Below, piece after piece: positions 10,331 to 50,400 of a stretch of DNA of 64,000 nucleotides (positions within the stretch are counted from its first letter, which is position 1; each line of letters starts with the position of its first letter). The DNA is from Lobosporangium transversale (lineage: Eukaryota). Location of the stretch: the NCBI RefSeq assembly GCF_002105155.1, contig NW_019028982.1, positions 1,240,001 through 1,304,000 of the forward strand. Reading direction: 5' to 3'. The position numbers were made by a program, and so were the translations under genes. The notes under the pieces are model-generated. The model searched no databases and was not told the origin of the DNA. It saw only the letters and a program-made list of their open reading frames with translations.

Positions 10331-10854
10331 TGGGACCAGCCTTTCCGTTTCTTATAGTTTTTTTTTTTTAAAAAATAACACAGAGTAACGCAACAAGGTA
10401 TTTCCTGTGCTAAATCCATTTAGTTAAGCTAATCGAAATTTTCTATGCCCACTACTCGTCATTCTTGTTGCATAGAAGCATAGGAAGCATAGAATGTCCT
10501 CCGAATCCATATGAACCTTGTTGATCCGGCTCATTACGAAGAAGCGGAGATGATTAAAGATAAGAAAGACCTGTCTAGGATTCGCAAATAACTTTGATTA
10601 GCTAACGTCGATGCTGCTTATCATCGTGAAACAAGTTTTTGACTCAATCACCAAAGGATTAATTTCCAGATCAACTTCGGTGTTCTACACATCCTGAGCA
10701 GTAACGGATACAATAAAAGGGGCCCTCCCTTCCCCTGATCCTCTAAGGCACACACTCTCAACATACTTAATCAGCCACTCTTTTTTTTAATCATCATCGA
10801 AACAAAGCAACATATCCTCCGATCCCTTAACTTATCCTCATTATAAAAAAAGAA

Positions 10855-12682
10855 ATGTCACCTCCACAAAACAAGTATGGGCCTGCGAAAGCCATTGAAT
10901 TTTATAATAAAAACACGGTCATCTTCTTGACAGGTGCTACGGGCTTCATTGGCAAGGCCATCTTGGAGAAGCTACTGCGTTCTTTCCCCCAGATCACAAA
11001 GTAAGTGCCCTTTTCTTTTGCTTTTTTTTTTTTTTTTCAAGTATCAGGTTCGACTGTAAGACAAGCGTTAATGTTTTGTTTTTTTATGAAAACATCAGGA
11101 TCTACTTGCTGATCAGGGTCTCGGGGAAGAAGACATTGAAAGATCGTATTGAGAATATATTTAGCAGCAGGATTTTTGATACTGTCAAGTCCCAATTCTC
11201 AAGTGCTCAAGAGTTTCAAGAAAAGATTGTCCGCAAGGTTGTGCCTGTGAAGGGAGATATTTCTGCCAATCATCTGGGTCTCTCAGACGAGGATATGGCT
11301 ATGGCCCAGGAAGATACCACAGTTTTCATCAACAGCGCTGCCTCTATCAAATTCAATGACCCGTTGAAGACTGCCCTTGAGGTAAAATATACGAAATACA
11401 AGAGTAACAATACCTGTCAAACAACACGCAGTAGATAACTTATTTTGTTTTTCTTTTTCTTTCTTTTTCTTTCAGATAAATACAAATGGCCCTCTCCGCA
11501 TATTCGAAATTGCCAAGGGCTGCAAAAATTTAGCTGCCATCGTTCATATCTCGACTTGCTTTGTCAACGCACCCATGTTTGAGCAACATATTGACGAAAT
11601 CATCTATCCGCACCCACTTGGTGATGATCCTGAAGCCATCTATGATATGCTGTCCACCAAGATGTCCTCCAAAGAGATAAAAGATTATGAGGAATCTGTG
11701 GTCCTCAAGGCTTACCCCAATACATACACATTCGCCAAGTCCTTGGCAGAACATTTGATAAAGAGCCGATATAGGGATATGGCTCTCCCTATTGTCATTG
11801 TCCGCCCTGCCATTGTCACTGCTGCCTACAAGGAACCAGTTCCTGGATGGGTAGAAGGGTCTGCTGCAACCAACAAAGCGATTGTGGCTGGTTCGATCGG
11901 TCTAATTCAAGAATGGATCGGTAACGAGGTAATTAAGCAGAAGTCAGTAAAAAAAAAAAAAAGAAAGAAAGAAAGAAAGAAAGAGCGCTATATTTATCAA
12001 AGTCAAGGCAAATATTGATGAGTGTTTCTATGTTTTCACAATAACCTTCTAGTCCGCTAAAGCAGACCTAGTTCCTGTCGATTTTGTGGTCAAAACGACC
12101 CTTCTCTCCGCCACGACTGCTGATCGCACACTCACAGAGCCTCGCATATATCATGTCGGTACCAGCTGCATTAATCCCATCACCTGGAGTCGCTTTGGTA
12201 TGTATATGGTCGCATACTGGCGAGCGGTTGCACCACCAAGCCAGCGAGTCTCAGATGACATTCGATTCGAACTTTACCCTCCTGCAGAATTCAAATATCG
12301 ATATAATACTCGCTTTGGAGGGGAGATCCGAACTTTAGCTCGGCACAAACATGACGAGGAGCGTAAAGTTTATATCTCCAGGGCAATGGTTGTGCCTACA
12401 GTTCTCATAGCTTTTTTGCAGTCTGAATGGTTCTTTGATGTAACCAATACATTAGTCCTTGATGATGCTGCACCTGCAGAGCTCAAGAGCGAACTCAAAA
12501 GCGGTATAGATTGGGACAGATACATGGAAGACTACAATGCAGGCGTGCAAGGGTTTATTTTGTGTGAGAAGGTCGACAGGCCCATTGTAACCGATTACAC
12601 TGCTGAATTGCGCCCAGTATCAGATACAAAGAGAGAAGGAAGTGCTGAAGTAACATTTATGGATATCATGGCCAAACTTTAG
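10855..12682 (+). CDS. Fatty acyl-CoA reductase (NAD_binding_4/male-sterility family), copy 1, 4 exons
   Basis: FLTGATGFIGKAILEKLLR, NSAASIKF, YTFAK (YxxxK), IVRPAIV, EPVPGWVE, DLVPVDFVV. Ends AKL. Confidence 0.88.
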
Positions 12683-20186: not shown

Positions 20187-21472
20187 TAAAAAAAGTTTCG
20201 TGGTTACTGATTGTCATTTCCTCACCTTTTTGTACGCTGTAGGATGAGATTTCGATTCATCAACAAAGTCTAACCGAGGAAAGAGAGCAACGCTCAAGAG
20301 TGTAAGTGTCGTAGGATTGGACATGTCCCCCTACGATGTGGCATCAAGACCATGATGAGCCTTTACTAACTTTATTTTAACAAACTGTAACTAGTGAACA
20401 AGCTCTGCAGGAGCAGCAATATCAATCCCACCAACTACAACAGCAAATTCAGTTGCAGCAAACTCAGCTCCATCAACAACAAACAGAGATTGTCAATCTG
20501 CGTGCTAGTTTGGAGGTAGAGCAGAGACAAACTGTTCTTCTTCAACAAAAACTCCAGGAGGAGCAACGGTTGAACAGCCAATACGGAAGGCGTGTTTCTA
20601 TAGATGGTGATCTCAACGGATCGTTTTTGATGGTGGAAAATAACGCAAATGGTAGCAATGGCATCAACGTTGGAGCTACTCCGGTGGTGATGACTGCTTC
20701 TTCTGATATCCCATTGAATATGATAGGCAACAACAACATGGTTTCACCTGGACCCGGCCATCCATTATCATCATCTGGCCCATTCTCGTCCATGACGACT
20801 ACAGCCACGTCATTAGCAACTGGAATTCAGCCTATTCGTGGTTTTGATGCTTCGTCATCCTCTTCATCATTGTTGTCAAACCAGATTAATGCAAGCTCAG
20901 CCCAGAGTGGCGTACAAGCTGCAGCACTTCCACCAATGGCACCTGCTATGACCCATGGAGGAATGGCCACATCGGTAGCAGGAATAGCAACCCCAGATAT
21001 CGAAGCTAAGCCTGGAATGATTCATCGTGGCAGCTCTAGTTCAATCACAGGAATCATAGCGAATGGAAACGTGGGTAATAACCGTTTATCGTTGCAAGAC
21101 TCGCTTGGATCTGCAGGGTCTTCAGCAACTACTTCAGGCGCAGCAGTGGCTGTTGGTATGCAAACTATTGAGGAATTGACAACTCAACTACAGCACCTCA
21201 TTAAGGAAAAGGAGAGGGTACGTACATAAGTGTTTTAGCATTGTTTCATTTGTACCGTGGTTCTGGAGAAATAATAATCACTTTCTTTACTTCTTTGTTA
21301 CCTACCCACTGTTCGTCCGCATCTAAATTAGCTACAAGCGGATCTGAGCAAGATCCCGATTTCAGGCGGTGGGCCGATGACGAGACGTAAGGCGGATATG
21401 CTCGAAGAACAAATGGATAAAACAGAGAGGGCGATTAGTAAGATTCGATTGAACATCCGTATGCAGTCATGA
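17661..21472 (+). CDS. Multi-exon coiled-coil protein with Ser-rich N-terminal half
   Basis: Exons join across GT-AG introns into heptad-rich segments. Last exon LQADLSKIPISGGGPMTRRKADMLEEQMDKTERAISKIRLNIRMQS*. Confidence 0.7.
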
Positions 21473-22697
21473 GACGAATGCTCTAAGTATATGAACAAAA
21501 TAAAAAAGGATAATACATAGAAGCTATCGACTTGTGCGGGCAAGATGACATGTCTGTCTGGTCTATCTCCAATCATTCTTCTTCCGTAATTAGTCCTATC
21601 CATATGAACAACTGTACTTTCGACATCGGACTTATTTGATTACTAAAATCAAATCATCGACTAGATGTACAATAGTCGAGGAACAAAATATAAAAAAACC
21701 CTTTTTTTTTTTTTTTTTTTTTTTGTTGTTGTGATGATTGAAAATGAATATCTTAATACCAAAACTAGGCTCTGGAGACTGCGCCCTCAAGATTCCAATT
21801 TATTTACTCTTATCGTACCCTTGCTGATCCAAAGCTAGCCTTCTTCGACTAAGTGATGTGTTGTTATCTTTAATGCCAACACAGTCGCCGTATGAGATCT
21901 TTGACGAGGAAACAGTGGAGGATGATAGTAGTACCAGGTAAGTCTGACACGAGCAAAAAAAAAATACTATAGTATCAGTGCAAGGGTATTTGGAATAGGA
22001 AATGATCAATATAGCCCAAAGCCCAAAGACCGCGATGTATACCATAATGCATTTTGTTTTCTACTATAGCCATTTACAGTTTTACCCTCCCACGCAGCAG
22101 CAAAATCGGATAAATCTAGGAAAAAATTGGTCGGTTCTGAATTCATCGAAAGTTCTTTGGCTCCTCCTTTCGACCAGATTGCAAAACCAAACAGAACTGT
22201 CCAGCTGTCTCTATTAAGGTTAAACGTGATCAAGAGGTCAAGCATCGAGATGAAAAAGCACCAAAGCTCACTTTTAGATCTGTTGGTTCAAAACTCACCT
22301 CTGAAAATCTCCAGCAAAGGTGCACTGTTAACTGATCCTCAAATGCCATAGACTGAATACGATAATGCCATTTATATCCAACCATTCTGGGACAAGGTAT
22401 CATGCTTGACCACAATAGATGAAGCATCATTTCTACTCCCAGCAAAGGCCACAAATGAACAATAAAAAGCTTTGGATCGAAGTGCGACCAATGAATTCAA
22501 TCAAGACCAGTTGATCAAGCACAACTCCATAAAACCAAGCGAGCTGCAGGGGTTGAGCGAACGGGACAGATTTGCTTTGTTATGCGCTTGTCGTGCCCTT
22601 GTCGCGCCAGGTGGCGAAGTTGAAAAAGAAAAGGATCATCGCATAAGAGAATTAAGGAAATCCTTCATCTGTCATCACTCATTCAGTTGTTACCGAA

Positions 22698-25226
22698 ATG
22701 ACAGAGCATCAATACCAACAATTCCGAAAGGCCGACATTATTGAAAAAGTTTGTGTCAGAATTGCTTCCACCTTTGCAAGCAATGTCAACTCGTCTTGCT
22801 ACGTAAGTTTGCAAGACATTCAAGACGTGTTTCCAGATGCATTGCGCTTCAAGTTGGACGGGGATCCCATCCCGTTCCTTATAGACCCTAATGGGAACAG
22901 GTGCGTTATTAATTATCGTGCGCCTTATCAATCGCAATTGTCTCTGAAAAAGATAAAGGAACTAAATCTGGTGTATCTCTTTATTAGAATCGAACCTCTG
23001 CGCATTGCATTTTATCCTTACAAGATCCTGGATGTCATTACAGATGTACCGCAGCCCAGCGACAGTAACAACGGCAGCAACGCCACCATTCGTTTGCCTA
23101 CATTAAAAAATTCGGCAAATCTGGTCTCTCAGGATCCTCTTTCACCATTATTAAAGTTGATTGAATGTCTCAGCTCGTTTACGCTCACCGACGCACAAAA
23201 GGAGACGATCGTCTTCAACTTTGAAAAGGCTGAAAAGTTGCTATTGGAGGCCAGCGAGAAGGATGCCAAGATTGCTCTGCTGGAAACCAAAGAAAAAGAC
23301 AACAAGCTGGTCAATCTGTTGGAGGTCAGAGAATATAATGATAAAATAGTTAGTCTGCTGTTGGAAATCAAAGAAAAGGACGATAAGATAGTTAGTCTGC
23401 TGTCGGAGGCTAAAGAGAAGGATGTTGAGATGCTCAAGTTGCAAGACAAGATGCTTGGGCTACTATCTGGGACTAGGGAAAAGGACGACAGAATGCAAAG
23501 TCAAGCCCTCAACAGACTTGCCAGCCTTCAAAAGCGTGCTCATGCTATCCTCTCCCAGAACTTTGAGCTTCACGAATGTCCATTTCCTCGATTATTTATA
23601 ATTTTGCCTGTCGACCGCCCCAGATGGGACTCAGCGGATGTCTTGAAGAACAAGTTCCGTCTCCATTTCCTTTGTGAATCTGGTGGCCACACCACAATGC
23701 CCGGCAAAAGTAGCCAGAGTCAAATCCATATTACCAAACATGACGGATACGAAGTCCGAGATTGCACAGGAATCGTCAGGAAGTATGGAAAATATATGCT
23801 CATCCTCTTACATTGGCTCAAGTTGGGAATGCCTTCGTCTGCTTCTTCAGCACCAGACTCAAGTTTAATCGATATCGGTACCGACTGTTTAATGGGCTAT
23901 ATGGATGCGCTCTCTAAGAAGCATCCGGACTTGAACAACATCAATACAATCGATGACTATGAAGGACTTGAGAGAGCTGAGCTCCGAGAGCTGAGAACAT
24001 TTCTTCGAACCAACAATGATGACAGACAAATTGACGATTTGTACAGGGTTGCGACCGGAACAGGGCATTTTAAATGGGTTTGCCTCGATCACTATCGTCC
24101 GACGTTAAAAGAGCAAGAACAGAAGGCGTTTGAAAGTGCAGTAATGGCCAATGGTGGTAAATATGACGCGTACATTGGTAAAGTGATTGTCACTTTGGAA
24201 TCCAGAACCAAAGCTGAAAAATTCTTCACGATCCTAACCAATGCAAGACGTGTTTATGAGTTGGATATCACATTCGATTGGGATTGGACCGAGGTTGAGC
24301 TTGAAGCATTTGAGAATGTCTTAAAGGTATCAAGTGTATCGATTCTCCGGCTTGGGCTTCAATGGTTTCAAGCAAGCGAAGGAAGCGCCAGCAGGGAACT
24401 ACTTTCAATATTCATGCGATATGAAATACTTGTTCGCATCATAGGACTCTGCAAGATGAAAATGATTCATATTGTTCTATCTCCGGATCTCATAAAGCTT
24501 CTCAACTTACAACCCAAAAGATCGTCACATCTCCATAGGTTATCCTTCGAGATGAGTTTTCGAGGAATTGGAGCCAGTGAATTACTAGTACTTATAAATT
24601 CACTCAAGACTAACAAGGCTTTAACTATTTTGGACTTGGGATACAACTCGATCGGGAATGATGGAGTTGTAGCGCTGTCAGAGGCACTCAAGGTTAACAA
24701 AACCTTGACCGCTTTGGACATGAAGTATAACTTTATTGGGGATGAAGAAGCTCTGGCACTGTCAAAGGCGCTCGAGACAAACACTACTTTGACCGCTTTG
24801 AACCTGGAGTGTAACTCAATAGGGAAAGAAGGAATCCTGGCACTGTCCGAGGCACTCAAGGTCAACACGACTTTGAGTACTTTGAATCTGGGGACCAATT
24901 CACTTGGGAAGGAAGAAGCTCTGGCATTAGCAGAGGCACTGACGACTAACACGGCTTTGATCTCTTTGTGCTTAAGTTGGAACCCAATCGGGAATGGAGG
25001 AGCTGTGGCATTAGCAGAGGCACTCATGGTCAACAATACTTTGACCACTTTGAACTTGGGTTTCAATGCATTTGGGACTGAAGGAGCTCTGGCATTAGCA
25101 GAGGCACTGGCGACGAACACTGCATTGACCACTGTGGACTTGAAGGGTAACTCAATCGGGATTGAAGGGGCCTTTGCACTATCAGAGGCGCTCCAGTTTA
25201 ACGTGGCTTTGACGCTTTATACATGA
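22698..25226 (+). CDS. Coiled-coil plus RNI-like 28-aa LRR protein, copy 1 (intron 22901-22987)
   Basis: 14-aa LLEAKEKDDK-type repeats, central FELHECPFPRLFIILP...FRLHFLCE...KWVCLDH domain, 7 LRRs. Confidence 0.8.
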   Translation: MTEHQYQQFRKADIIEKVCVRIASTFASNVNSSCYVSLQDIQDVFPDALRFKLDGDPIPFLIDPNGNRCVINYRAPYQSQLSLKKIKELNLVYLFIRIEPLRIAFYPYKILDVITDVPQPSDSNNGSNATIRLPTLKNSANLVSQDPLSPLLKLIECLSSFTLTDAQKETIVFNFEKAEKLLLEASEKDAKIALLETKEKDNKLVNLLEVREYNDKIVSLLLEIKEKDDKIVSLLSEAKEKDVEMLKLQDKMLGLLSGTREKDDRMQSQALNRLASLQKRAHAILSQNFELHECPFPRLFIILPVDRPRWDSADVLKNKFRLHFLCESGGHTTMPGKSSQSQIHITKHDGYEVRDCTGIVRKYGKYMLILLHWLKLGMPSSASSAPDSSLIDIGTDCLMGYMDALSKKHPDLNNINTIDDYEGLERAELRELRTFLRTNNDDRQIDDLYRVATGTGHFKWVCLDHYRPTLKEQEQKAFESAVMANGGKYDAYIGKVIVTLESRTKAEKFFTILTNARRVYELDITFDWDWTEVELEAFENVLKVSSVSILRLGLQWFQASEGSASRELLSIFMRYEILVRIIGLCKMKMIHIVLSPDLIKLLNLQPKRSSHLHRLSFEMSFRGIGASELLVLINSLKTNKALTILDLGYNSIGNDGVVALSEALKVNKTLTALDMKYNFIGDEEALALSKALETNTTLTALNLECNSIGKEGILALSEALKVNTTLSTLNLGTNSLGKEEALALAEALTTNTALISLCLSWNPIGNGGAVALAEALMVNNTLTTLNLGFNAFGTEGALALAEALATNTALTTVDLKGNSIGIEGAFALSEALQFNVALTLYT

Positions 25227-25825
25227 GGATGCCTTAAATTGATAGCCAAGAGACACTCACCATTAGCTGATCTAATTTGCGGAAGGAGAGGGGGGGGGGG
25301 GGGTTTTCTTTATTATTTGACTGATTTGATTATTAGAATAGCGTGGAAGTATTGAAGAAAATGAAGTTGGTCTAAATAAATAGGCTCACGGCAGTCAAGC
25401 GGTTACAGCAACTTTGCCTTTTGATCCTTTCGATGTTGGCTCTTCTCCTCCTTTTAGGGCAGTTCTCGCATGTCAGCGCTGTTGAAAATCCATTCATTTT
25501 AGCAATTTAGTATATCATTTTAATCGAATGAAACACCAGAGCACAGCTTTCTATTATGATAAACCATGTATGAACATCACGTAGAACAATGTAAAGTTAG
25601 CAAAGGTACTTGTTCGTAATCTCTCTTCTTGATGTTTGAAGATCATCAACGGAGGGGTCGGAAATATTCCGCCGTCAAAGGTCCATTCTTTTACTGGTGC
25701 GCTTATGCTCATATGATATGGTATTAAGAACAAATTCTAATATGTATGTCTCTCTAGTCTAAAATGAAGGGGAGATATCTCTGTCATCCAAGGGGGCGTT
25801 TCTAATTTAATACATTCTTCTGTCT

Positions 25826-39191: not shown

Positions 39192-40975
39192 ATGTCACCT
39201 CCACAAAACAAGTATGGGCCTGCGAAAGCCATTGAATTTTATAATAAAAACACGGTCATCTTCTTGACAGGTGCTACGGGCTTCATTGGCAAGGCCATCT
39301 TGGAGAAGCTACTGCGTTCTTTCCCCCAGATCACAAAGTAAGTGCCCTTTTCTTTTGCTTTTTTTTTTTTTTTTTCAAGTATCAGGTTCGACTGTAAGAC
39401 AAGCGTTAATGTTTTGTTTTTTTATGAAAACATCAGGATCTACTTGCTGATCAGGGTCTCGGGGAAGAAGACATTGAAAGATCGTATTGAGAATATATTT
39501 AGCAGCAGGATTTTTGATACTGTCAAGTCCCAATTCTCAAGTGCTCAAGAGTTTCAAGAAAAGATTGTCCGCAAGGTTGTGCCTGTGAAGGGAGATATTT
39601 CTGCCAATCATCTGGGTCTCTCAGACGAGGATATGGCTATGGTCCAGGAAGATACCACAGTTTTCATCAACAGCGCTGCCTCTATCAAATTCAATGACCC
39701 GTTGAAGACTGCCCTTGAGGTAAAATATACGAAATACAAGAGTAACAATACCTGTCAAACAACACGCAGTAGATAACTTATTTTGTTTTTCTTTTTCTTT
39801 CTTTTTCTTTCAGATAAATACAAATGGCCCTCTCCGCATATTCGAAATTGCCAAGGGCTGCAAAAATTTAGCTGCCATCGTTCATATCTCGACTTGCTTT
39901 GTCAACGCACCCATGTTTGAGCAACATATTGACGAAATCATCTATCCGCACCCACTTGGTGATGATCCTGAAGCCATCTATGATATGCTGTCCACCAAGA
40001 TGTCCTCCAAAGAGATAAAAGATTATGAGGAATCTGTGGTCCTCAAGGCTTACCCCAATACATACACATTCGCCAAGTCCTTGGCAGAACATTTGATAAA
40101 GAGCCGATATAGGGATATGGCTCTCCCTATTGTCATTGTCCGCCCTGCCATTGTCACTGCTGCCTACAAGGAACCAGTTCCTGGATGGGTAGAAGGGTCT
40201 GCTGCAACCAACAAAGCGATTGTGGCTGGTTCGATCGGTCTAATTCAAGAATGGATCGGTAACGAGGTAATTAAGCAGAAGTCAGTAAAAAAAAAAAAAA
40301 GAAAGAAAGAAAGAAAGAAAGAGCGCTATATTTATCAAAGTCAAGGCAAATATTGATGAGTGTTTCTATGTTTTCACAATAACCTTCTAGTCCACTAAAA
40401 CAGACCTAGTTCCTGTCGATTTTGTGGTCAAAACGACCCTTCTCTCCGCCACGACTGCTGATCGCACACTCACAGAGCCTCGCATATATCATGTCGGCAC
40501 CAGCTGTATTAATCCCATCACCTGGGGTGAGTTTAAAACGTATTTGAATTCATACCTTATCGTAGCTGGACCACCAAGTCAACGGATCTCAGATGACATT
40601 CGGTGCGATTTTTACCTTCCTGCAGAATTTGAACGTCGATTTGAAGCCCGCTTTGGAGAGCTGATCCGAACTTTGGATCAGCACAAAGATAATGAGAAGC
40701 TCAAGCGTCAAATCATCATGGCAAAGAATCTGATCATCGACTTCAAAGCCTTTACCTTAAACCAATGGTTCTTTGATGTGACCAATACATTGGCCCTTGA
40801 CGATGCTGCACCTGAAGAGCTCAAAAGCGAGCTCAAGAGCGGGCTCAAAGAAGGTATGGATTGGCACAGATATATGGTGTGCTACGCCTCAGGCGTGCAT
40901 CGCTTTATTCTAGGTGAGGAGGTCGCTATACCCTATGGAATGGTCGCAAAAGAAAAGATCACGGGCAGACTCTAG
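39192..40975 (+). CDS. Fatty acyl-CoA reductase, copy 2
   Basis: Nearly identical to copy 1 up to ~40525, divergent afterwards. Ends GRL. Confidence 0.88.
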
Positions 40976-40998
40976 GGTTTTATATATTTATTTATTTA

Positions 40999-41378
40999 CT
41001 AGGCAGGCGATCCGTGGCTTCGCTCACGGTCGCCCCGGTCTGGTGCTTTGATTCGTTGGGAACAGTGGTTTTTTTTTTTTTTTTAAAGGAAAATATTAAT
41101 AGATAAATAACAAAATAAAGCAGAACCGCTGGTTTTGTCTTTGCACCAACGATACACGTCCAACAATTTGCATAGTTTCTGACAATTAGATTTTGGGAAA
41201 TGTGTTGAGTCCAAGGGTTCTTACTAAATGAATTGCAGGTACTATCTGTTAATATGTAAGGCATTTAAAGTTAGTCCAGAAATTCAGGGACAAGAGATTA
41301 GGTAGAAAGGATACAGGAGACGGAAATAAACAGAACTTACAAATTCTTGTGGGTGTGCCGGCACCCAAATACTTGTGC
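40999..41378 (-). ncRNA. Candidate Fanzor omega-RNA region
   Basis: Positional inference: lies between the Fanzor stop and the element 3' end, with several hairpins. No expression evidence. Confidence 0.35.
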
Positions 41379-43020
41379 CTAGTGTCTTGCGCGCTTTGCA
41401 GCCGGAGCAGGCGACTCTTCCGTGGGCTTGTACTTTGCAGGTCTCCCTTGCCTCTCAATTTGTGCAAGACCGATTCTTGCGATGTTTTCCGCTTCTACTG
41501 CGTCACGGCCGAAGAATACCTTACATGTCCAGCAATATTTAGAGCGAGGGTACACCGCTTCTAAAAAGCTATCGCAGAGAAGTCGGGGACAGCGGGCGCT
41601 GGTGTAAAATTCGTGCGCCCCTACAGCGAAGTGTCCTCGTGCTTTGACCTAAGCGCTTCAAATGGCAGTCATTTATCAGCAAGGGTTCTATGGCTCTCCA
41701 GCTTTTTCTTATTTTTTTAAAAAAAAGCCATATCTGTGTGACAAGGTGTCTCGTTACTGCAGTGTGCTTGCTGGGAACTCCTTTACTACTTTCAAAGGAC
41801 CCTAGGCCGACGACACTCGCTGTACCGCGTAGTCGAACGTAGCTCGTTGAGCCTTTCGTAAGTCCCATTTTTTTTAGGTGTCATCTGGACTCGTAGAACT
41901 CTTGAAGCACATCCAAATTCTTTGATCCTGTCTGTGTCTAGGACTCCTCGTTCATCCATTGAAAGCACTCATTGTACGTATCCCTTCCAAATACAGGGAT
42001 GGCGCTCTCAACCTCAATCATTCCTTTTTCACGCTTCCTTTTGTTCAGCAGGTGATTGAAGTGGAGGACGGGAAGGTACAGGAACCTACTTCTCACCTTT
42101 AACGTTTGCCGCAAGTTAGGGTTGTAAGGGTCCAGCGAGGAAAACGTAAGGGCGTTAGCAATACCAGGATCGCACCCAACAATGGTTGTGGAGTTTGCGG
42201 ATGGGCATCGCTCTGGTTCGTTGAATGTGAGCTCAACGTATTCAAGCAGTTTGGAGCTCCTCTTAATCGAACGACTCGAATTATCTAGAGATCTGTAACT
42301 TAAGGGCGTCATTCGAACCCATTTGAGTTCGATATGTTCGAATCGATTAGGAGCACTGCCCGTACGCTATCGCCATGGACATGGACGTGGACAAAGACAT
42401 GAACAAACGGCTCAAATTCGACCAACTGCTGTCCCTAGCGAAGCGTTGTAAGCGTTTAGTTTTTAAACTGTCTTGCAATACATCGCTTACGATATCTGGA
42501 TACTAATGAAGAGAGTTTTGGCTTTGCAACTGGGATGTTGTCCTTGATGATCTGACAGAGCTTTGATGCTGGCCCGCCAGGAGCCTTGAGCACTTCTTTC
42601 TGACCCCAGCCTCTATTCGTTTATTCTTCCAAAAGCGCTCGAACAGCATTTCCAGAGATTCCAAGTAAAGGGACGCTTCATCATTGGATTGCAACTGGCG
42701 GAGGGTTGAGAACAAAGAGCTTTTGAAGGAGTGAGAGCATTGGAAGGATAATTTACAAAACTAAAGGTACCGAATAGGACATGAACCTTTACAGTATTCA
42801 GTTTATGATTAAACGGATATATGGTTACCTCAATTAAAGACCACCATCCCATATCCCCTGCGCATGTTTTTTTGTGGCTGCTTGCGGCACATCTGTTTAT
42901 CAACAACCTATTCCTACTCGCTATAGCCTCATCAAATAACATCGCCTTCTTCTTAGCGGAATAACGCCTCACAGTGGACGTGCTCTTTCGTAAGGCACTA
43001 CTTTGGTCCCTACACACACT
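41379..43020 (-). pseudogene. Fanzor (TnpB/Cas12-like RuvC nuclease) pseudogene with intron
   Basis: RuvC-I IVGCDPG (D 42169-42171), WDLRKAQRATFDYAV helix, VVGLGSF, RuvC-II GAHEFYTS (E 41610-41612), zinc finger CPRLLC/CWTC, RuvC-III GRDAVEAENI (D 41502-41504). Stop at 41379. Confidence 0.88.
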
Positions 43021-43240
43021 TCTTTAAGTGTTTGATAATGGTCTCTTCCTTAACGCTCGGAGTAGAGACACGCACCATTACTACTTGTCTGTCGCAAGGC
43101 AGTTATTTATTTAAGCCAAACAATTTCTCTTAAATACTCCTACACTATTTCGGTGATCAAACTAGTAAAGTAATCAAAAGAGTCAATGTTGTGCGTTTTC
43201 TAACAGTGCCAAGGCCTCTTGGTTGTCGATCAAGGCACCC

Positions 43241-45657
43241 TTATTTATAGAGAGTCAAAGCCGTGTTGGTCTTGAGTGCCCCTAACAGTGCCGAAGCTCC
43301 TTCGTCCCCAATTAAGTAGTTGTGCCTCAAGTCCAAACTGGTCAAAGTTCTGTTAGTCTTGAGTGCCCCTGCCAGCGCCAGAGCTCCTTTAGTCCCAATC
43401 GAGTTGTATTTTAAGTCCAAAGCGGTCAAAGTGGTATTAACCTTGAGCGCCTCCGATAGTATCACAGCTCTTTCATTTCCAACTGAGTTGTTCCCCAAGA
43501 CCAAAGTAGCCAAAGCTGTGTTAGCTTTGAGTAAATTTATAAGTGCTTGAAATTCACTGGCTCCAATCGATCGAAAGCTCATCTCAAAGGACAACTTATG
43601 AAGTTGTGGAAGATGTGGCGGTCTTTTGGGTCGTAAAGTGAGGAGTCTTGTAAGATCTGAAGTTAGAACAATATGAATTAATTTCATCTTGCAGAATTCT
43701 ATGATGCGGACAAGTATTTCATATCGCATAGATGGTGGAAGTGGCTCCCCGCTGACATTTTCTTGAAGCCTTCCAAGTCCAAGTCGAAGAATCGATACAT
43801 TTGACACCTTTAAGATATTCTCAAATGCTTCAAGATCAGACTCGGCCCAATCCCAGTCAAATGTGATGTCCAACTCGTAAACACGTCCTGCATTGGTTAG
43901 GACATTGAAGAATTCTTCAGCTCTGGCTTTGGATCCCAGTTTGATAACCAGTTTGCCAAGGTGGGAGTCGTATTTGGCATTATTCATTTTCACTACATCT
44001 TCAAACGCTTTCTGCCTTTTTTCCTTATACATCGAACGATAGTGGTTGTGACAAACCCATTTGACATAGCCTGTTTCGGTCGTGACCCTGTACAGGTTAC
44101 CAAGGTCCTTGTTCCCATCTGTAATCCGAAAAGATGTGCCCAGCTGTCGGAGTTCAGTTTTTTTGAGCCCTTCAAAGTCATTAATTGTGCTGATCTTGTT
44201 CAAGGCCGGATACTTCTTGGAGAGCGCTTGTAAATAGTCGATTGAATAGTCAATACCGGCATCGATTAAACTTGGGTCTGGTGCCAGAGAATCAGGTAAG
44301 GCCATTCCCAGCTTGAGCCAATGTAAGAGGATGAGCATGTACTTTCCATACTTGCGAAAGAACCCTGTGCAGTCTCGAACTTCATATCCATCATGTCTAG
44401 CAATGTGGATTTGACCCGGGTTAGGTTTGTTGGCCATCGCGGTGTAGTCTCCACATTCACATAAGAAATGGACGCGGAACTTGTTCCCCAAGAGTTTTAC
44501 TGGGTCCCACTTGGTGCAATTAAGAGGCAAAATTATAAACAAACGAGGAAATGGGCATTCATGAAGCTCAAAATCCTGAGTGAGGATAGAATGAGCATGC
44601 TTTTGATGCATGGTAAGGTTGTTTAAGGCCTGGGCTTGCATTTCATCGTCCTTCTTCTTAGTCTCCATTTCACCACCCTTCTTCCTAGCCTCCAATCGTA
44701 GTTTAAGCATCTCGTCTTGTATTTTGAGCATTTCACCATCCTTCTCTTTGGATTTCAATAGCATATTAATTATCTCGTCGTCCTTTTCCTTGAGCTCCAA
44801 TTGCAGATTAGCTATCTTTTCGTTAATCATCTTGCTGTCCTTCACTTTGGCTTCCAGTAGATTAATCTTGGCATCCTTCTCGCTGGCTTCCATCAACAGA
44901 TTAATTATCCTGTCATCCTTTTCTTTGGCTTCCACTAAATTGGTCATCTTGTTGTCCTTCTCTTTGGCTTCCAGCAGGCTAATCTTGGCATCTTTCTCGC
45001 TGGCCTCCAATAGCAATTCCGCAATCATTGCAAGGTTAGAGTTGATCGTCTCGATTTGAGCGTTGTCGGGAGTAGTAAGAAATGAATTGAGGCATTGAAT
45101 CAAGTTCGATAATGGCAAAAGAGGATCCTGTGTAGTCAGATTTACCGACTTTCTCAAAGCAGGTAAACGGATGGCGGCGTTGCTGTTACTTTTACTACTG
45201 CCTTTGCCGTTGCTGCTGCTTTTGATGCTATTGCTACTAGTGTTGCTGCTGCTGCTGTTGGTATTGGTATTGGTGTTGGCATTGGTGTTGCTGGACCGTG
45301 GCACTCCTGTAACGACGTCCAAGATCTTGTAAGGATAGTATGCAATGCGTGGAGGTTCGATTCTAATAAGGAGAGAGACACCAAATTTAGCTCCTTCATC
45401 TTTTTTTTCAGAGACAATAACAATTGATAAGGCGCACCATAATCAACAAAGTACCTGTTGCCATTAGGGTCTACAAGGAATGGGATGGGAAGTTCACCCA
45501 ACTTGAATCGCATTGCATCTGGAAACACATCTCGAATGTCTTGCAAACTTATGTAGTAGGACGAGTTGTCATTGCCTGAAAATTTGGAAGCATTCCTGAC
45601 GCAAACTGTTTCGATGACGCCGGCTCTTCGGAATTGTTGGTATTGAAGCTTCATCAT
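43241..45657 (-). CDS. Coiled-coil plus RNI-like LRR protein, copy 2 (intron 45363-45454)
   Basis: Colinear paralog of 22698-25226 with 3 full LRRs and an N/S-rich insertion. Confidence 0.8.
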
Positions 45658-46858
45658 TTCGATGGATGATGAGAGAATGAAGACTTCCTTACTTCTCTTT
45701 TGGCCGATGTCTTTTTTTTTTTTTTTTTTTTTTTTTTCAACTTCGCCACTTGGAGTGACAGGAGTGAGAGAGTACAAATTACAAACAGTAATACAGATTA
45801 GATGCGGCTTAACAAAGTTGCTGTGCTAATTAACTAGTCTTGCTTGATCGACTGGTCGCATTTTCATCTAAAGGTTTAAACTGCACATTTACAGCCTGGT
45901 TGAAGGTGAAGTGGCCTTTGTTGGGATGCTGCATCTATCATGACCACCCATAATACTTTTTCCTGCAATAGTTGGAAATATAAAAAGTACGCCTTGAACT
46001 ATTGATATGAGCAGCATAGTCGTACTCAGCGTACTGGACTTGAGAGATCACTCAACGGTTATGGTAGAAATCTCAGTTAGTCAGTGGTACGGCGGCAGGC
46101 GTCAAAAGAAGAAGAGAAGTTGTACACAGCATCCTTCAAAGATCAATAGGGTAATTGTTATCATTGATCAGAAACCCAACGAATAAACAAGCGCTCGACC
46201 AGAACCATCCCAACCAAAGAAAAAAAAGAACATTATCAGATTAAGTCACTAATCCATGCAGTGTCGAGTATGATTCCCATTCAAGAGCACCAGTTTTTCA
46301 CCGTTTTCAGAACAGAAAGCGTTTTTATCAGATTGGGTCTGGTTCACAGCAACAACGTGATGCATTCGTTTAAAAGTAATTTAGACACAACATATTAAAG
46401 GCCACAATGACGTATATTTTGCTCTTAATTGGTCCCCCTTTTTTCTCTTCTTGTTTCTTTCTTTCTTTCACACCCCAGTTGAACAACCACTCGCCTATTA
46501 TTGTTATGACGTATGTGGCTACTAACTAATCCAGGGGAAGAATGAACATTACATTCACTTACAGTACATGGTCATTCAGATCTCTGATGCGGCTCGCAAT
46601 GCCATGGCCATCACCTTTGTGTTTGATATTTTATCTGTATCTTTTCATGTTCAGCTTGACCAATCCTGATCACGAAATTAATAAAATCCAATAAACGCGA
46701 AGAATGTCGCGCGCTATTCAAACAGATTGCATGTGTTGCTTAATTGCATGCGTATTTGTGTATCTGTGAACACGTACATGTTTTCTGCCTCAAACAAGGA
46801 CATGTTCTTTATATGCTTAAAGAATGAGAAGATATTGGGTTGCAGAGTTTGATCAATA

Positions 46859-47424: not shown

Positions 47425-50400
47425 ATGCCTTTTCCTATCCCTTCTAATGACCTCATGGCCACTGCCATGGGTGGTCCATTACTCTCAACCACATCCAGTA
47501 ATGTCTCATCCAACAATTTAACATTAGCTTCTGCTGTGGCTACTACTTCTGCCAAAGCTAAAAAAGATGTCCGGGCAGGCTCTGGCACAGGCACTGTCCG
47601 AATCTTTTATTCTCTCAAAGAAAATCCAAATGCCATCATCTCATACACTGACCTGATCCGTCAAGAGCAGAAACGTCAACGCATGATTCAAGTTCAGTCG
47701 TCGTCTTTGCCATCTAAAAACAATGTCACACCCAATATAGCAAACTCAGCTCCGTCAACGCCCCTCAAAAATCAAAAGACCAAAGAGGGTGGCGCTACTA
47801 CTACTCAACCATCACCATCAGTATCAGCCATGGATATCGATCCACCAGAAGGTGAAGAAGCTCTTGGAGATGTGGAAGCTGATAGTGAGGCGGAAGACGA
47901 CGACGAGGCAGACGAAGACGAAGACGAAAATGAAAATGAAGATGATGCTGAGGCTGAGGAGGAGGAGGGCGACGAGGATCCGGATGAGGAAGAGAATGAT
48001 GACGACGATCTTGACTCTGCAAGACGTGGGCCAAAAGACTTTTTGGATTCCCTCACTGAAAAATATGCCGGTCTAGAAGAAGGAAATGAAGGCGAAGACG
48101 AAGACGAGGACGAGGACGAGGATGACAAGGTAAGGGAGGATGTTCACATGGTTAATCTCAAATTGCTCATTAATATGATTTAAACGATCATATTATATTA
48201 CATTGTATGCTATCTTTCTTCTTTTTACTACACATTTTTCAAAAAAAGAGTTTGAAAGTGCATGGTCACACGCGATATATTTGATCAATGAATGTGTCAG
48301 TGCACTCGCAACGTCGAGTACAGTACGCCAGCCGACAACAAATCCTAATTAAAGAATGATCTATCATTCATTAGATCTAAATCAACACGTGCTTTGTATT
48401 TCTGTTCCATATAGGGACGTGTCTACAAGCGATCAAGTAGATGGGATACAGAACACTACGACATTGAAGACGAATTTATCGATGATAGCGAGATGATGCT
48501 CGAATCCATCGGTATGGTACGGCCCAAAGTTGAAGGGTTTTTTGCGTACCGTGGCCCTGTAGAAACCACCACAGAGGATCCGTAAGTGAAGTAGCTTCGT
48601 TTATGGGATGTAGAGAATAGACAGCACCACGCTTGATTTCATTAATATGACTAACATTGACTTGTCTTTTATTTTTCACATGAGAGTAGCGATTCATCTG
48701 ATGCGGGACTACGCACAAGAAAGGCAGGAAAGAGAAAAACAGCAGCTGGTGCTTCACCATTGAGCACTGTCAAAACCAACGCATCGAAATCAGCAAAGGG
48801 ATCTAGCTTGGCTATCATGGAGAATGCCAACGATTCGACATCAGAGATGAGTGAAATGGATGAGAAGCCTAAAACTAGCAAAGCATCGTCCTCGGGTTCA
48901 GGACTAGCAAATTCTTCTACCGTCCCAGCTGATATTACAGGGGGTGAAGGAGGTATGAGCAGCGTGACAACGACTCCGACCAAGAAAAAGACAAACCTTT
49001 CAAAATCTAAGGCTTTAGCGAAGGAAACATCGAAAGATGGGACGGAAGCAAATAAAGATTCTGATAAGGAGTCAAAAGCTGGATCTAATAAGAAAACAAA
49101 GTCAAAGTTGCCGAAAGCCACCACCAGTTCGACATTAGCAGCAACTTCTGTTACTCCTATTGTTCGAGTGGATTCGCCTCCGCCTCTTGATGGGGTCCAA
49201 GATAATGGAGACAACTCAAGTCCGCCACTTCCGATGTCTCGCTCAGCATCTCCATCTAGATCGAAAGGGAAATTAAAGGCACCAGCAGCAATGGATACGG
49301 ATTCTTGTAATGCTGAAGGTTCTGTCGAGCTTGCTGGGTCACAAGAAAGCTCTTCTGGACAGAATGTATCGGAATCACAACTAGTAAAGCCGGAATCTTT
49401 GCAGGAATCGGTCACATCCACTTCAGAAGTAACTGAGCAAAGCACCCAGTCGACGGGATCAAAGGCTTTGGAGCCCCTCAATGAAATGGTACAGGAGGCA
49501 TACAACATTGTTGCTGACCTTGCTAGGAAAGGTAAAGAAGAGGCTTTATTGCTTACTGTATGGAAAGTATCACACAATCTGAAGCCATAGTCGCCCATGC
49601 TTATTACTTTTTGTTGCGCACCTTTAGAAACCTGGGAGCACAAGTCAAAGTTCCCTCCGCACATCAAGGAGCCTCTCTGGAATTGCGCAAAAATCGCTCT
49701 TCGAACACGATCGAGCGGATATATGCTCAAGGATGATTTCTTTCTCCATCTTCAAGAGGTTTTCCCTTATAATAAATTTACGCTCCGGGTAATAATAATT
49801 ATAATTTCATTAATCTTGTATATTTTGTGAATATAAATGATGAGAGTCCAAGAAATGGATCACACGGATTAAAAAGCTAATTTCTCTTGTACAATGAAAT
49901 CCGTATTAGAAACTCATTTATAAGCAAGTATTGCCAGAGTGGATAGCAGAGCTGGAGGAAGAAAAGACTAAAGCCATGGAGCAATTCTCAAAACGCGTAA
50001 AGATGATTTCTAAGGCTTACAATTTGACCGACATTGAAAACGCTCCATCAGATAAAGACGGCGATGGGGATACCAACATGAATGGGGAAGAAGGTAAAGA
50101 CAAAAAATGATTATCAGGAAGTTCTTTTGAAGATATTCATTGAATTATGCTTCATTGGGCCTATTGATTCGCATTTTTTATTTTATTTTTCTTTAATTTA
50201 TTTATTTATGAATTTATTTGGACAAATTTTTAGTCAAACGGAAATTCCCTTGGACTCAAGACCTTAGGATGCTACTATGGGAGACTATGGAAAAAATCAT
50301 GGAGATTTACTACGCGAGGCAGGAGCTCAGGACTGTCGACGATAGTGTGCCTGCACAAAACACAGACTCGAAGACTCGGAAGGATACTTATCAACTGGTA

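What the first reader, a model, noticed from the sequence alone, without database searches (positions are those of the whole stretch)
40975..41378. Candidate omega-RNA scaffold with a guide derived from the host flank
Seen: ~380 nt of non-coding sequence between the Fanzor stop and the CTAG terminus. It contains palindrome GTGCCGGCAC (41355-41364), an imperfect hairpin AAAGACAAAACC-AGC-GGTTCTGCTTT (~41117-41142, minus strand) and the terminal GC-rich hairpin. Established: TnpB/Fanzor guide RNAs come from the element 3' end and read into the flank. Inference: the guide would start TAAATAAATAAATATATAAAAACC, which is antisense to the FAR copy-2 3' UTR (the empty insertion site). The Helitron terminator hairpin might double as an RNA scaffold.
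Basis: inference. Interest (0 to 1): 0.75.

Follow-up and report, generated by a model that had tools for sequence, protein, structure and literature searches.

The report
Fanzor guide scaffold holding intron-like end
This is the tail of a broken copy of a known fungal RNA-guided nuclease (Fanzor1) transposon: the family's shared sequence stops about 136 bases after the gene, so that shorter stretch, not the 380 bases proposed, is the likely guide-RNA scaffold, and its last 95 bases look like a spliceable intron that might switch the guide on or off.

Summary
The motifs are present, but the boundary is wrong. The gene is a 5'-truncated, broken copy of a multi-copy Fanzor1 family; one member (ORZ22893.1) is already listed as FZ1 by Saito 2023. 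Contigs from four runs show multi-copy depth only above ~41243. Other copies leave into unrelated flanks at ...ACAGATA (41243), and 41053-41226 has no multi-copy depth. The likely omega-RNA scaffold is therefore 41378-41243 (136 nt), with a guide starting GTACCTGCAATTCAT, not TAAATAAA at CTAG.

Its first stem-loop recurs at the stop of a relative (32% protein identity) with two compensatory pair changes (n=2). The GC hairpin before CTAG is real (most stable of 10,659 windows) but is shared with another high-depth sequence that does not continue toward the Fanzor. The palindrome and the middle hairpin are chance-level.

New observation: 41340-41246 fits a canonical spliceosomal intron (7 of 20,000 shuffles) ending 3 nt before the guide. 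Splicing is unshown, and the relative lacks it. This copy cannot make its own nuclease. Verdict: new member of a known kind, with one testable oddity.

The parts
41379..42264 (-). Fanzor1 pseudogene, C-terminal ~60% only: RuvC-I GCDPG, RuvC-II HEFYTS, zinc finger, RuvC-III RD; two in-frame stops, a frameshift, a short deletion, a broken intron donor, 5' truncation
   Evidence: homology to family proteins reaches 42249-42263 and no further; junction 42264 read by eye
41649..41733 (-). 85-nt intron inside the Fanzor frame; begins AT instead of GT in this copy
   Evidence: family proteins join ...LVTQ to V/IKARG; one X5 contig of a diverged copy joins exactly across it (loose end behind 41650)
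41243..41378 (-). Family-conserved 3' end, 136 nt: likely omega-RNA scaffold (5' start inferred; it may begin inside the ORF)
   Evidence: depth rises 60- to 130-fold over single-copy level above ~41243-41256; loose ends of other copies pile at 41243/41264
41339..41376 (-). Conserved stem-loop: inner helix UGGGUG/CACCCA (41367-41350) inside ACAAGU/AUUUGU
   Evidence: same motif pair once in the window and once in L003, at the Fanzor stop in both; 25 of 26 cells paired, 2 pairs with compensatory changes, n=2; L003 version z -4.44, window version z -1.49
41246..41340 (-). 95-nt spliceosomal-intron-like stretch: GTAAGT donor, 79% pyrimidine tract, GACTAAC branch (A at 41271), ACAG acceptor 3 nt before the element end
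   Evidence: splicing not shown
41243..41250 (-). Family terminus ...AACAGATA; AACAGA can pair with UCUGUU at 41334-41329 as a stem closing at the guide
   Evidence: loose-end strings; MFE; 6-bp terminal stem in 112 of 5000 shuffles
41228..41242 (-). Predicted 15-nt guide of this copy, GTACCTGCAATTCAT (host flank)
   Evidence: inferred from the boundary and the 14-15-nt extension of published Fanzor RNAs; no other match with <=2 mismatches in the window
41053..41242 (.). Single-copy DNA between the Fanzor end and the GC hairpin; not part of the family
   Evidence: X1 flat at 108.7 from one contig with 0 differences; X3 <=9.6, X4 <=1.9, X5 0 in bins 41053-41226
40998..41050 (-). GC-rich hairpin ending CTAG-T; shared with a separate high-depth sequence (Helitron-like 3' end, or an organelle/other repeat)
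39133..40975 (+).

Best explanation
The stretch is the right end of a broken Fanzor1 transposon copy whose family-shared sequence ends at 41243, so the 136 nt between the stop codon and ...ACAGATA likely encode the omega-RNA scaffold and the next ~15 nt of host DNA would be the guide. Shown: the gene is a dead Fanzor1 copy, the family ends at 41243, flanks beyond it differ between copies, and a stem-loop at the stop is kept in a distant relative. Inferred from the published Fanzor1 systems: a transcript runs through the end and is trimmed to scaffold plus guide; the 6-7-bp first hairpin docks on the RuvC/TNB surface; a short stem closes at the terminal UA; and an intact Fanzor from another copy would cut the empty site next to a TAM, helping the element persist by repair. 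This copy makes no nuclease and has lost its left end, so at most it would act like a 'ghost' RNA locus. The CTAG hairpin 200 nt further on is a piece of a different repeat.
For:: in X1, six contigs (2+3+1) with long unrelated flanks leave at 41243-41267. X3 shows five, X4 six and X5 three, with heavy overlap between runs. The printed loose strings for 41264, 41267 and 41278 carry the same TATCTGTT/ATCTGTT terminus. No run has multi-copy depth at 41053-41226; stem-loop shared with L003 with two compensatory changes; estimated chance of the motif pair near the stop ~3e-5 (post hoc); the MFE of 41378-41243 gives stem-loop, short linker and a stem closing 2 nt before the end, the layout described for SpuFz1 (PMC10432273 section 10). 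Xu 2024 reports a 7-bp first stem-loop in all three solved Fz1 RNAs, lengths 75-150 nt, and little constraint beyond it (PMC11423790 passages); family member ORZ22893.1 = P0024 is labelled FZ1; 15 of 25 family proteins keep all three catalytic motifs.
Against: No RNA was seen. The 136 nt are not unusually stable (z +0.43), and the terminal stem is weak (112 of 5000 shuffles) and drops out of the fold when three more 5' bases are added. Covariation rests on two sequences; the shuffle control is reached by 124 of 500. L003 shows no detectable similarity beyond the stem-loop (score 46.5 vs shuffle mean 38.9, max 61), and its own end is unknown. Only 24 of 74 loose-end rows and 40 of 87 variant rows were visible. 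The left end, TAM and transposase type are unknown.
Confidence: 0.7

Rival explanations
1. The last 95 nt are a working spliceosomal intron that governs the guide RNA: splicing either destroys the scaffold (an either/or switch as in bacterial IStrons) or produces the mature RNA (stem-loop, AUA, guide). This shares the boundary with the best explanation and differs in how the RNA is made.
For: Strict donor-branch-acceptor pattern in 7 of 20,000 shuffles. There are only 3 strict hits on both strands of the window (1 in the reversed window as null). Of the other two, 48582-48689 opens a frame when removed (0 stops vs 6) and 20302-20394 nearly does (1 vs 4). Pyrimidine content of 79% is reached by 191 of 23,848 windows, which would also explain the weak fold. 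The loose strings keep the donor and acceptor words in other copies. The partial gene model P0020 stops at the codon just before the donor (weak).
Against: No spliced form was seen; one search lists no such joint, though a 3-nt distal side would not appear as one. L003 has no canonical donor at that place. The donor GU and acceptor CAG also sit in the predicted stems, so RNA structure could create them. Two Parasitella omega-RNAs hold CAG-GTAAGC and AACAG about 22 nt apart, too close to splice (PMC10432273 supplement 5). The spliced form folds without a clean terminal stem. The descriptor was applied after the pattern was noticed.
Confidence: 0.2
2. The scaffold is much shorter or lies further 5': the conserved stem-loop is its last element, part of the RNA lies inside the ORF, and the rest of the 136 nt is only transposon-end DNA or an ordinary 3' UTR intron with no role in guiding.
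For: Similarity to L003 ends right after the outer stem. In L003 the stem-loop overlaps the stop codon. One DNA contig in X1 and X4 keeps the stem-loop and GTAAGT and then continues with other sequence (loose end before 41347).
Against: A guide starting inside the element would be the same in all copies and could not target empty sites. Published Fanzor1 scaffolds run to the element end, including the target-site duplication.
Confidence: 0.07
3. One reading: a Helitron carries the Fanzor, its ~380-nt tail is the scaffold, the terminator hairpin is part of the RNA and the guide starts after CTAG.
For: The hairpin plus CTAG-T fits the HLE1 3' end (PMC11417382 passages) and is the best such site of 464. 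An X5 contig shares it and differs right after CTAG-T. Fanzor1 in Helitrons is known from Chlamydomonas.
Against: 41053-41226 has no multi-copy depth; Fanzor copies end at 41243; hairpin-bearing contigs in X3 and X4 leave at 41041 into other sequence. 380 nt exceeds the 11 Fanzor1 RNAs listed (about 70 to 230 nt by their coordinates). No helicase or other family in the six frames of 42265-43035. At most a one-off neighbourhood or capture.
Confidence: 0.03

Closest known systems
Fanzor1 omega-RNAs of Spizellomyces punctatus (SpuFz1), Parasitella parasitica (PpFz1) and Guillardia theta (GtFz1); PMC10432273, PMC11423790
   Same: Non-coding stretch from the ORF end to the element end, conserved among copies with variable flank; first hairpin of 6-7 bp followed by an A-rich linker; end in ...UA as in SpuFz1; length within 75-150 nt plus guide.
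   Different: No TATCC/TTCC leader before the hairpin (GTATT here); an extra outer helix; a long unstructured pyrimidine-rich middle with intron signals; no terminal inverted repeat or transposase identified; RNA not observed.
Lobosporangium transversale Fanzor1 ORZ22893.1 (FZ1 in Saito 2023, supplementary file 3) and its paralogues
   Same: Same family (P0024, 77% identity to the window piece; 25 of 27 hits carry this species label, 63-93% identity).
   Different: This copy is truncated and broken. I found no description of the family's RNA end in the passages and supplements searched.
IStrons (group I intron plus TnpB; PMC10690162)
   Same: If the intron is real: a 3' splice site next to the scaffold-guide junction, so that splicing and guide function would compete.
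   Different: Spliceosomal rather than self-splicing; only the last 95 nt, not the whole element, would be removed; acceptor 3 nt inside the end; untested.
HLE1 Helitron 3' ends and the Chlamydomonas Helitron2-Fanzor elements CRe-1/2/3 (PMC11417382, PMC3627910)
   Same: Hairpin plus CTAG followed by T at 40998-41035. The window's Fanzor copy is 5'-truncated with an intact 3' end, as CRe copies often are.
   Different: The hairpin is not the Fanzor family's end; no RepHel or 5' TC end was shown; the Fanzor end has no terminal GC hairpin.

Membership tests
Fanzor1 protein | DPG signature at RuvC-I | tested here: met
   GCDPG in the window frame; catalytic D kept in 23 of 25 family proteins; feature from PMC10711439 passage
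Fanzor1 protein | Catalytic E six residues before the zinc finger, then C4 finger and RD | tested here: met
   HEFYTSARC...C...CWTC...RD; PF07282 hit in P0008 above cut-off, weak in the window piece (E 0.0055); feature
Fanzor1 protein | TDG motif in the WED domain | tested here: inconclusive
   TNG/TDG in relatives; region lost from the window copy
Fanzor1 protein | Placement in the Fz1 clade | tested here: met
   P0024 = ORZ22893.1, labelled FZ1 in the published table; no tree built here
Fanzor1 protein | Intact reading frame (working nuclease) | tested here: not met
   stops, frameshift, deletion and truncation in this copy
Fanzor1 omega-RNA (41378-41243) | Conserved among copies up to a sharp end, variable flank beyond | tested here: met
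Fanzor1 omega-RNA (41378-41243) | First stem-loop of about 7 bp | tested here: met
   6 bp in the window, 7 bp in L003, two compensatory changes; only two sequences
Fanzor1 omega-RNA (41378-41243) | Double-stranded stem closing at the guide junction | tested here: inconclusive
   6-bp UCUGUU/AACAGA in one MFE, absent in another; 112 of 5000 shuffles
Fanzor1 omega-RNA (41378-41243) | Small RNA extending 14-15 nt into the flank, bound by Fanzor, guiding cleavage next to a TAM | not testable with these tools
   only assembled contigs were available
   no multi-copy depth at 41053-41226
HLE1 Helitron 3' end (40998-41050) | Subterminal hairpin, CTRR, then T | tested here: met
   T follows CTAG in the window and in the X5 contig (2 of 2)
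HLE1 Helitron 3' end (40998-41050) | 5' TC end after A, empty site, or RepHel partner | tested here: inconclusive
   no Pfam family at E<0.05 in 42265-43035; paralogue 3' ends do not give an empty site; rest of the window not scanned for RepHel
Spliceosomal intron (41340-41246) | GT donor, CTRAC branch site, YAG acceptor, pyrimidine tract, 60-130 nt | tested here: met
   the consensus used is recalled fungal intron knowledge
Spliceosomal intron (41340-41246) | Spliced transcripts | not testable with these tools
   no run on record as RNA; no such joint among the rows shown
Spliceosomal intron (41340-41246) | Kept at the same place in relatives | tested here: not met
   L003 reads GTCTTT at the donor position; one relative only

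The most novel reading that the evidence does not exclude
This Fanzor1 family carries a spliceosomal intron inside its guide-RNA scaffold, with the 3' splice site 3 nt from the guide, so the host spliceosome decides whether a transcript becomes a guide RNA: a eukaryotic counterpart of the IStron switch, or the first spliced omega-RNA.
Probability: 0.2. Interest if true: 0.78.

Novelty: new member of a known kind. Interest (0 to 1): 0.4.

Why it matters
The corrected boundary gives a testable scaffold and guide junction for a young, multi-copy Fanzor1 family (at least 38 annotated proteins under one genome's locus tags) from a Mortierellaceae clade whose RNA end I did not find described. That is useful but expected. 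If the intron is spliced and controls guide production, it would bear on an open question, how eukaryotic omega-RNAs are cut out of polymerase II transcripts, and would show host splicing wired into an RNA-guided transposon nuclease.

Tried and rejected
No genome held for the window, so copies could not be aligned directly. No RNA holder listed: not evidence on expression; X5 is only guessed to be RNA. A second, narrower laying of contigs over 40960-41300 was not obtained, so 50 of 74 loose-end rows and 47 of 87 variant rows stay unseen. Rfam: 0 matches. Viral contigs: no Fanzor relative among 38 candidates, no exact hairpin match, no stem-loop descriptor match. Prokaryote genomes and plasmids: no match to the GC hairpin; this excludes only exact or close copies. 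Metagenomes gave 4 loci from 31 candidates; 3 of 4 stop before the C-terminus. An organelle origin of the hairpin could not be tested: the paper search found nothing and the recalled paper was not held. PDB sequence searches with P0001 and P0029 gave nothing significant. My first pair count used a misplaced outer helix (corrected in 76) and my first terminal-stem test missed the observed stem by an index error (corrected in 79). The FAR paralogue is no empty site: similarity ends near 40925. Literature on a spliced or intron-bearing Fanzor RNA: none among the listings (top 15-25 rows each), and none in the passages shown from PMC10432273, PMC10530073, PMC10711439 and PMC13565253. One supplement of PMC10432273 (file 2) was unreadable; supplements of PMC11423790 and PMC3627910 were not opened. 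Earlier scan notes for this place and for P0008: none.

Full report
Setting. No genome is held for this window. The stretch lies between two convergent host genes: a plus-strand gene ending at 40975 and a minus-strand leucine-rich-repeat gene ending near 43241. On the minus strand, 42264-41379 encodes the C-terminal part of a Fanzor. A search with its longest open piece gave 27 hits, 25 of them labelled Lobosporangium transversale at 63-93% identity; one cluster holds 14 further members. P0024 is ORZ22893.1, which the supplementary tree table of PMC10432273 labels FZ1. The window copy keeps the three catalytic motifs but has two in-frame stops, a frameshift, a short deletion and an 85-nt intron that begins AT. 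No family protein matches above 42263, so the copy is 5'-truncated and dead.

All are at the stated places; the guide is misquoted by one base. The palindrome is chance-level (408 of 1000 shuffles), and the 41142-41117 hairpin is not the preferred local fold. The GC hairpin before CTAG is strong: first of 10,659 windows and first of 464 CTRR-T sites. The whole 406 nt fold at z -1.61.

Where the family ends. Contigs of four runs were laid on 40850-41700 at 80% likeness. One X1 contig covers 40850-41324 without a difference, so the junction is real. Summed depth is about 60 to 130 times the single-copy level from the 41256 bin upward in X1, X3 and X4, and stays at single-copy level or below at 41053-41226 in all four runs. 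Summed depth is not a copy number. Loose ends pile up at 41243 and 41264: six contigs in X1, five in X3, six in X4 and three in X5 among the 24 of 74 rows shown, largely the same copies across runs. The strings printed for 41264, 41267 and 41278 contain the same terminus, TATCTGTT or ATCTGTT on the plus strand, preceded by unrelated flanks. The family therefore ends at 41243 (...AACAGATA on the minus strand), 136 nt after the stop. Whether the final TA is a target-site duplication cannot be told without the left end.

The CTAG hairpin. Positions 40998-41050 are matched by other contigs: about 25 times single-copy depth in X3 and X4, only 1-2 extra in X1, and one 1014-nt contig at depth 526 in X5. 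In X3 and X4 they leave at 41041 into different sequence; in X5 the flank differs right after CTAG-T. This fits the 3' end of a separate Helitron-like repeat (hairpin, CTRR, T; PMC11417382 passages). The uneven depth between runs that match the window's flank without a difference also fits an organelle or other variable-dose sequence. I put these at roughly 50% and 35% and could not separate them. No exact copy was found in viral contigs, prokaryote genomes or plasmids. Either way it is not the Fanzor's end.

Structure of the 136 nt. One of four metagenome loci, L003 (32% protein identity), runs past the C-terminus. At its stop it has the same ACAAGT...ATTTGT pair that occurs once in the window, at 41376-41339. 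On the pairwise alignment 25 of 26 cells pair, and the inner helix shows two compensatory changes, G-C to A-U and U-A to C-G. With two sequences the shuffle control is not passed (124 of 500); slid partners give no such changes. The L003 hairpin folds at z -4.44, the window's at -1.49. One search shows that most family depth carries letters closer to L003 at 41378 and 41346, so the window copy has decayed. Published Fanzor1 RNAs have a 7-bp first stem-loop, differ freely beyond it and measure 75-150 nt (PMC11423790 passages). SpuFz1 has a 75-nt scaffold of two stems, the second ending at the guide (PMC10432273 section 10 and passages). The MFE of 41378-41243 has that layout, but its z is +0.43, the closing stem is matched by 112 of 5000 shuffles, and it is lost with a slightly longer 5' end. 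Beyond the hairpin L003 is not detectably similar.

The intron-like end. From 41340 to 41246 the minus strand reads GTAAGT, a 56-nt tract of 79% pyrimidines, GACTAAC and ACAG, leaving only ATA before the flank. The strict pattern appears in 7 of 20,000 shuffles of the stretch. It occurs three times on both strands of the window and once in the reversed window. Of the other two hits, one opens a reading frame fully when removed and the other nearly. The pyrimidine tract is in the top 0.8% of windows. Against it: the test is post hoc, L003 lacks the donor, the GU and CAG are also stem residues, two Parasitella omega-RNAs contain similar words too close to splice (PMC10432273 supplement 5), and no spliced form was seen. 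I rate a real intron at about even odds, and an intron that matters for guide production at about 0.2. The bacterial precedent is the IStron, where splicing and guide maturation exclude each other (PMC10690162 passages). I found no eukaryotic case in the searches listed under Tried and rejected.

Mechanism. Shown: family, boundary, variable flanks, conserved hairpin, dead gene. Inferred from SpuFz1, GtFz1 and PpFz1: read-through transcription, trimming to scaffold plus about 15 nt, binding by an intact Fanzor in trans, cleavage of the empty site beside a TAM, and repair that restores the element. For this copy the guide would be GTACCTGCAATTCAT. Its left end is gone, so it is at best an orphan RNA locus.

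Papers. PMC10432273: passages, section 10, and searches in its supplements. PMC11423790, PMC3627910, PMC13565253, PMC10690162 and PMC11417382: passages only. PMC10530073 and PMC10711439: passages and supplement searches; the first lists no Lobosporangium or Mortierella, the second lists a different L. transversale protein.

Verdict. Observation partly confirmed, interpretation partly supported with the wrong end and guide. New member of a known kind; interest 0.4, carried mostly by the testable intron-in-scaffold reading.

Noticed in passing
P0029 residues 1-330; P0017, P0041, P0044 N-termini: Long proteins of this Fanzor1 clade start with a domain that the Atlas feature search places with XPG_N/XPG_I and Pox_G5 nucleases (score 0.94-0.96); Pfam and PDB sequence scans missed it. 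Full-length members may be FEN1/XPG-like nuclease-Fanzor fusions; 'XPG' does not occur in the main text of the four Fanzor papers checked.
   Followed up: partly
loose end behind 41650 in X5: A contig of a diverged family copy joins exactly across the 85-nt intron of the Fanzor frame: a spliced transcript if X5 is RNA, otherwise an intron-less copy.
   Followed up: partly
loose end behind 41332 in X4 and X5: On the minus strand the loose letters read like a RuvC-I motif of another Fanzor type (KVLGLDLGQ; motif identity recalled), joined to the last ~90 nt of this family and giving a GTATGT donor-like word at nearly the same place: a chimera or a shared end.
   Followed up: no
window 42265-43034: 770 nt of unknown origin between the truncated Fanzor and the 3' region of the LRR gene, with clustered TTCGAA/TCGA words near the junction; no Pfam family at E<0.05 in six frames.
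   Followed up: partly
window 41093-41105 and 41243-41255: 13-nt inverted repeat (92%) between the Fanzor terminus and the flank; AT-rich, probably chance.
   Followed up: no
window 10795-12575 vs 39133-40925; 22623-25252 vs 43216-45722: Two pairs of paralogous host genes: a direct pair at 92.6% and an inverted LRR-type pair at 70-80%.
   Followed up: partly
joint 41345-41416 in X1, X3, X4: One family copy has this stretch replaced by 38 other letters, which removes most of the conserved stem-loop; it matches the tail of P0020.
   Followed up: partly
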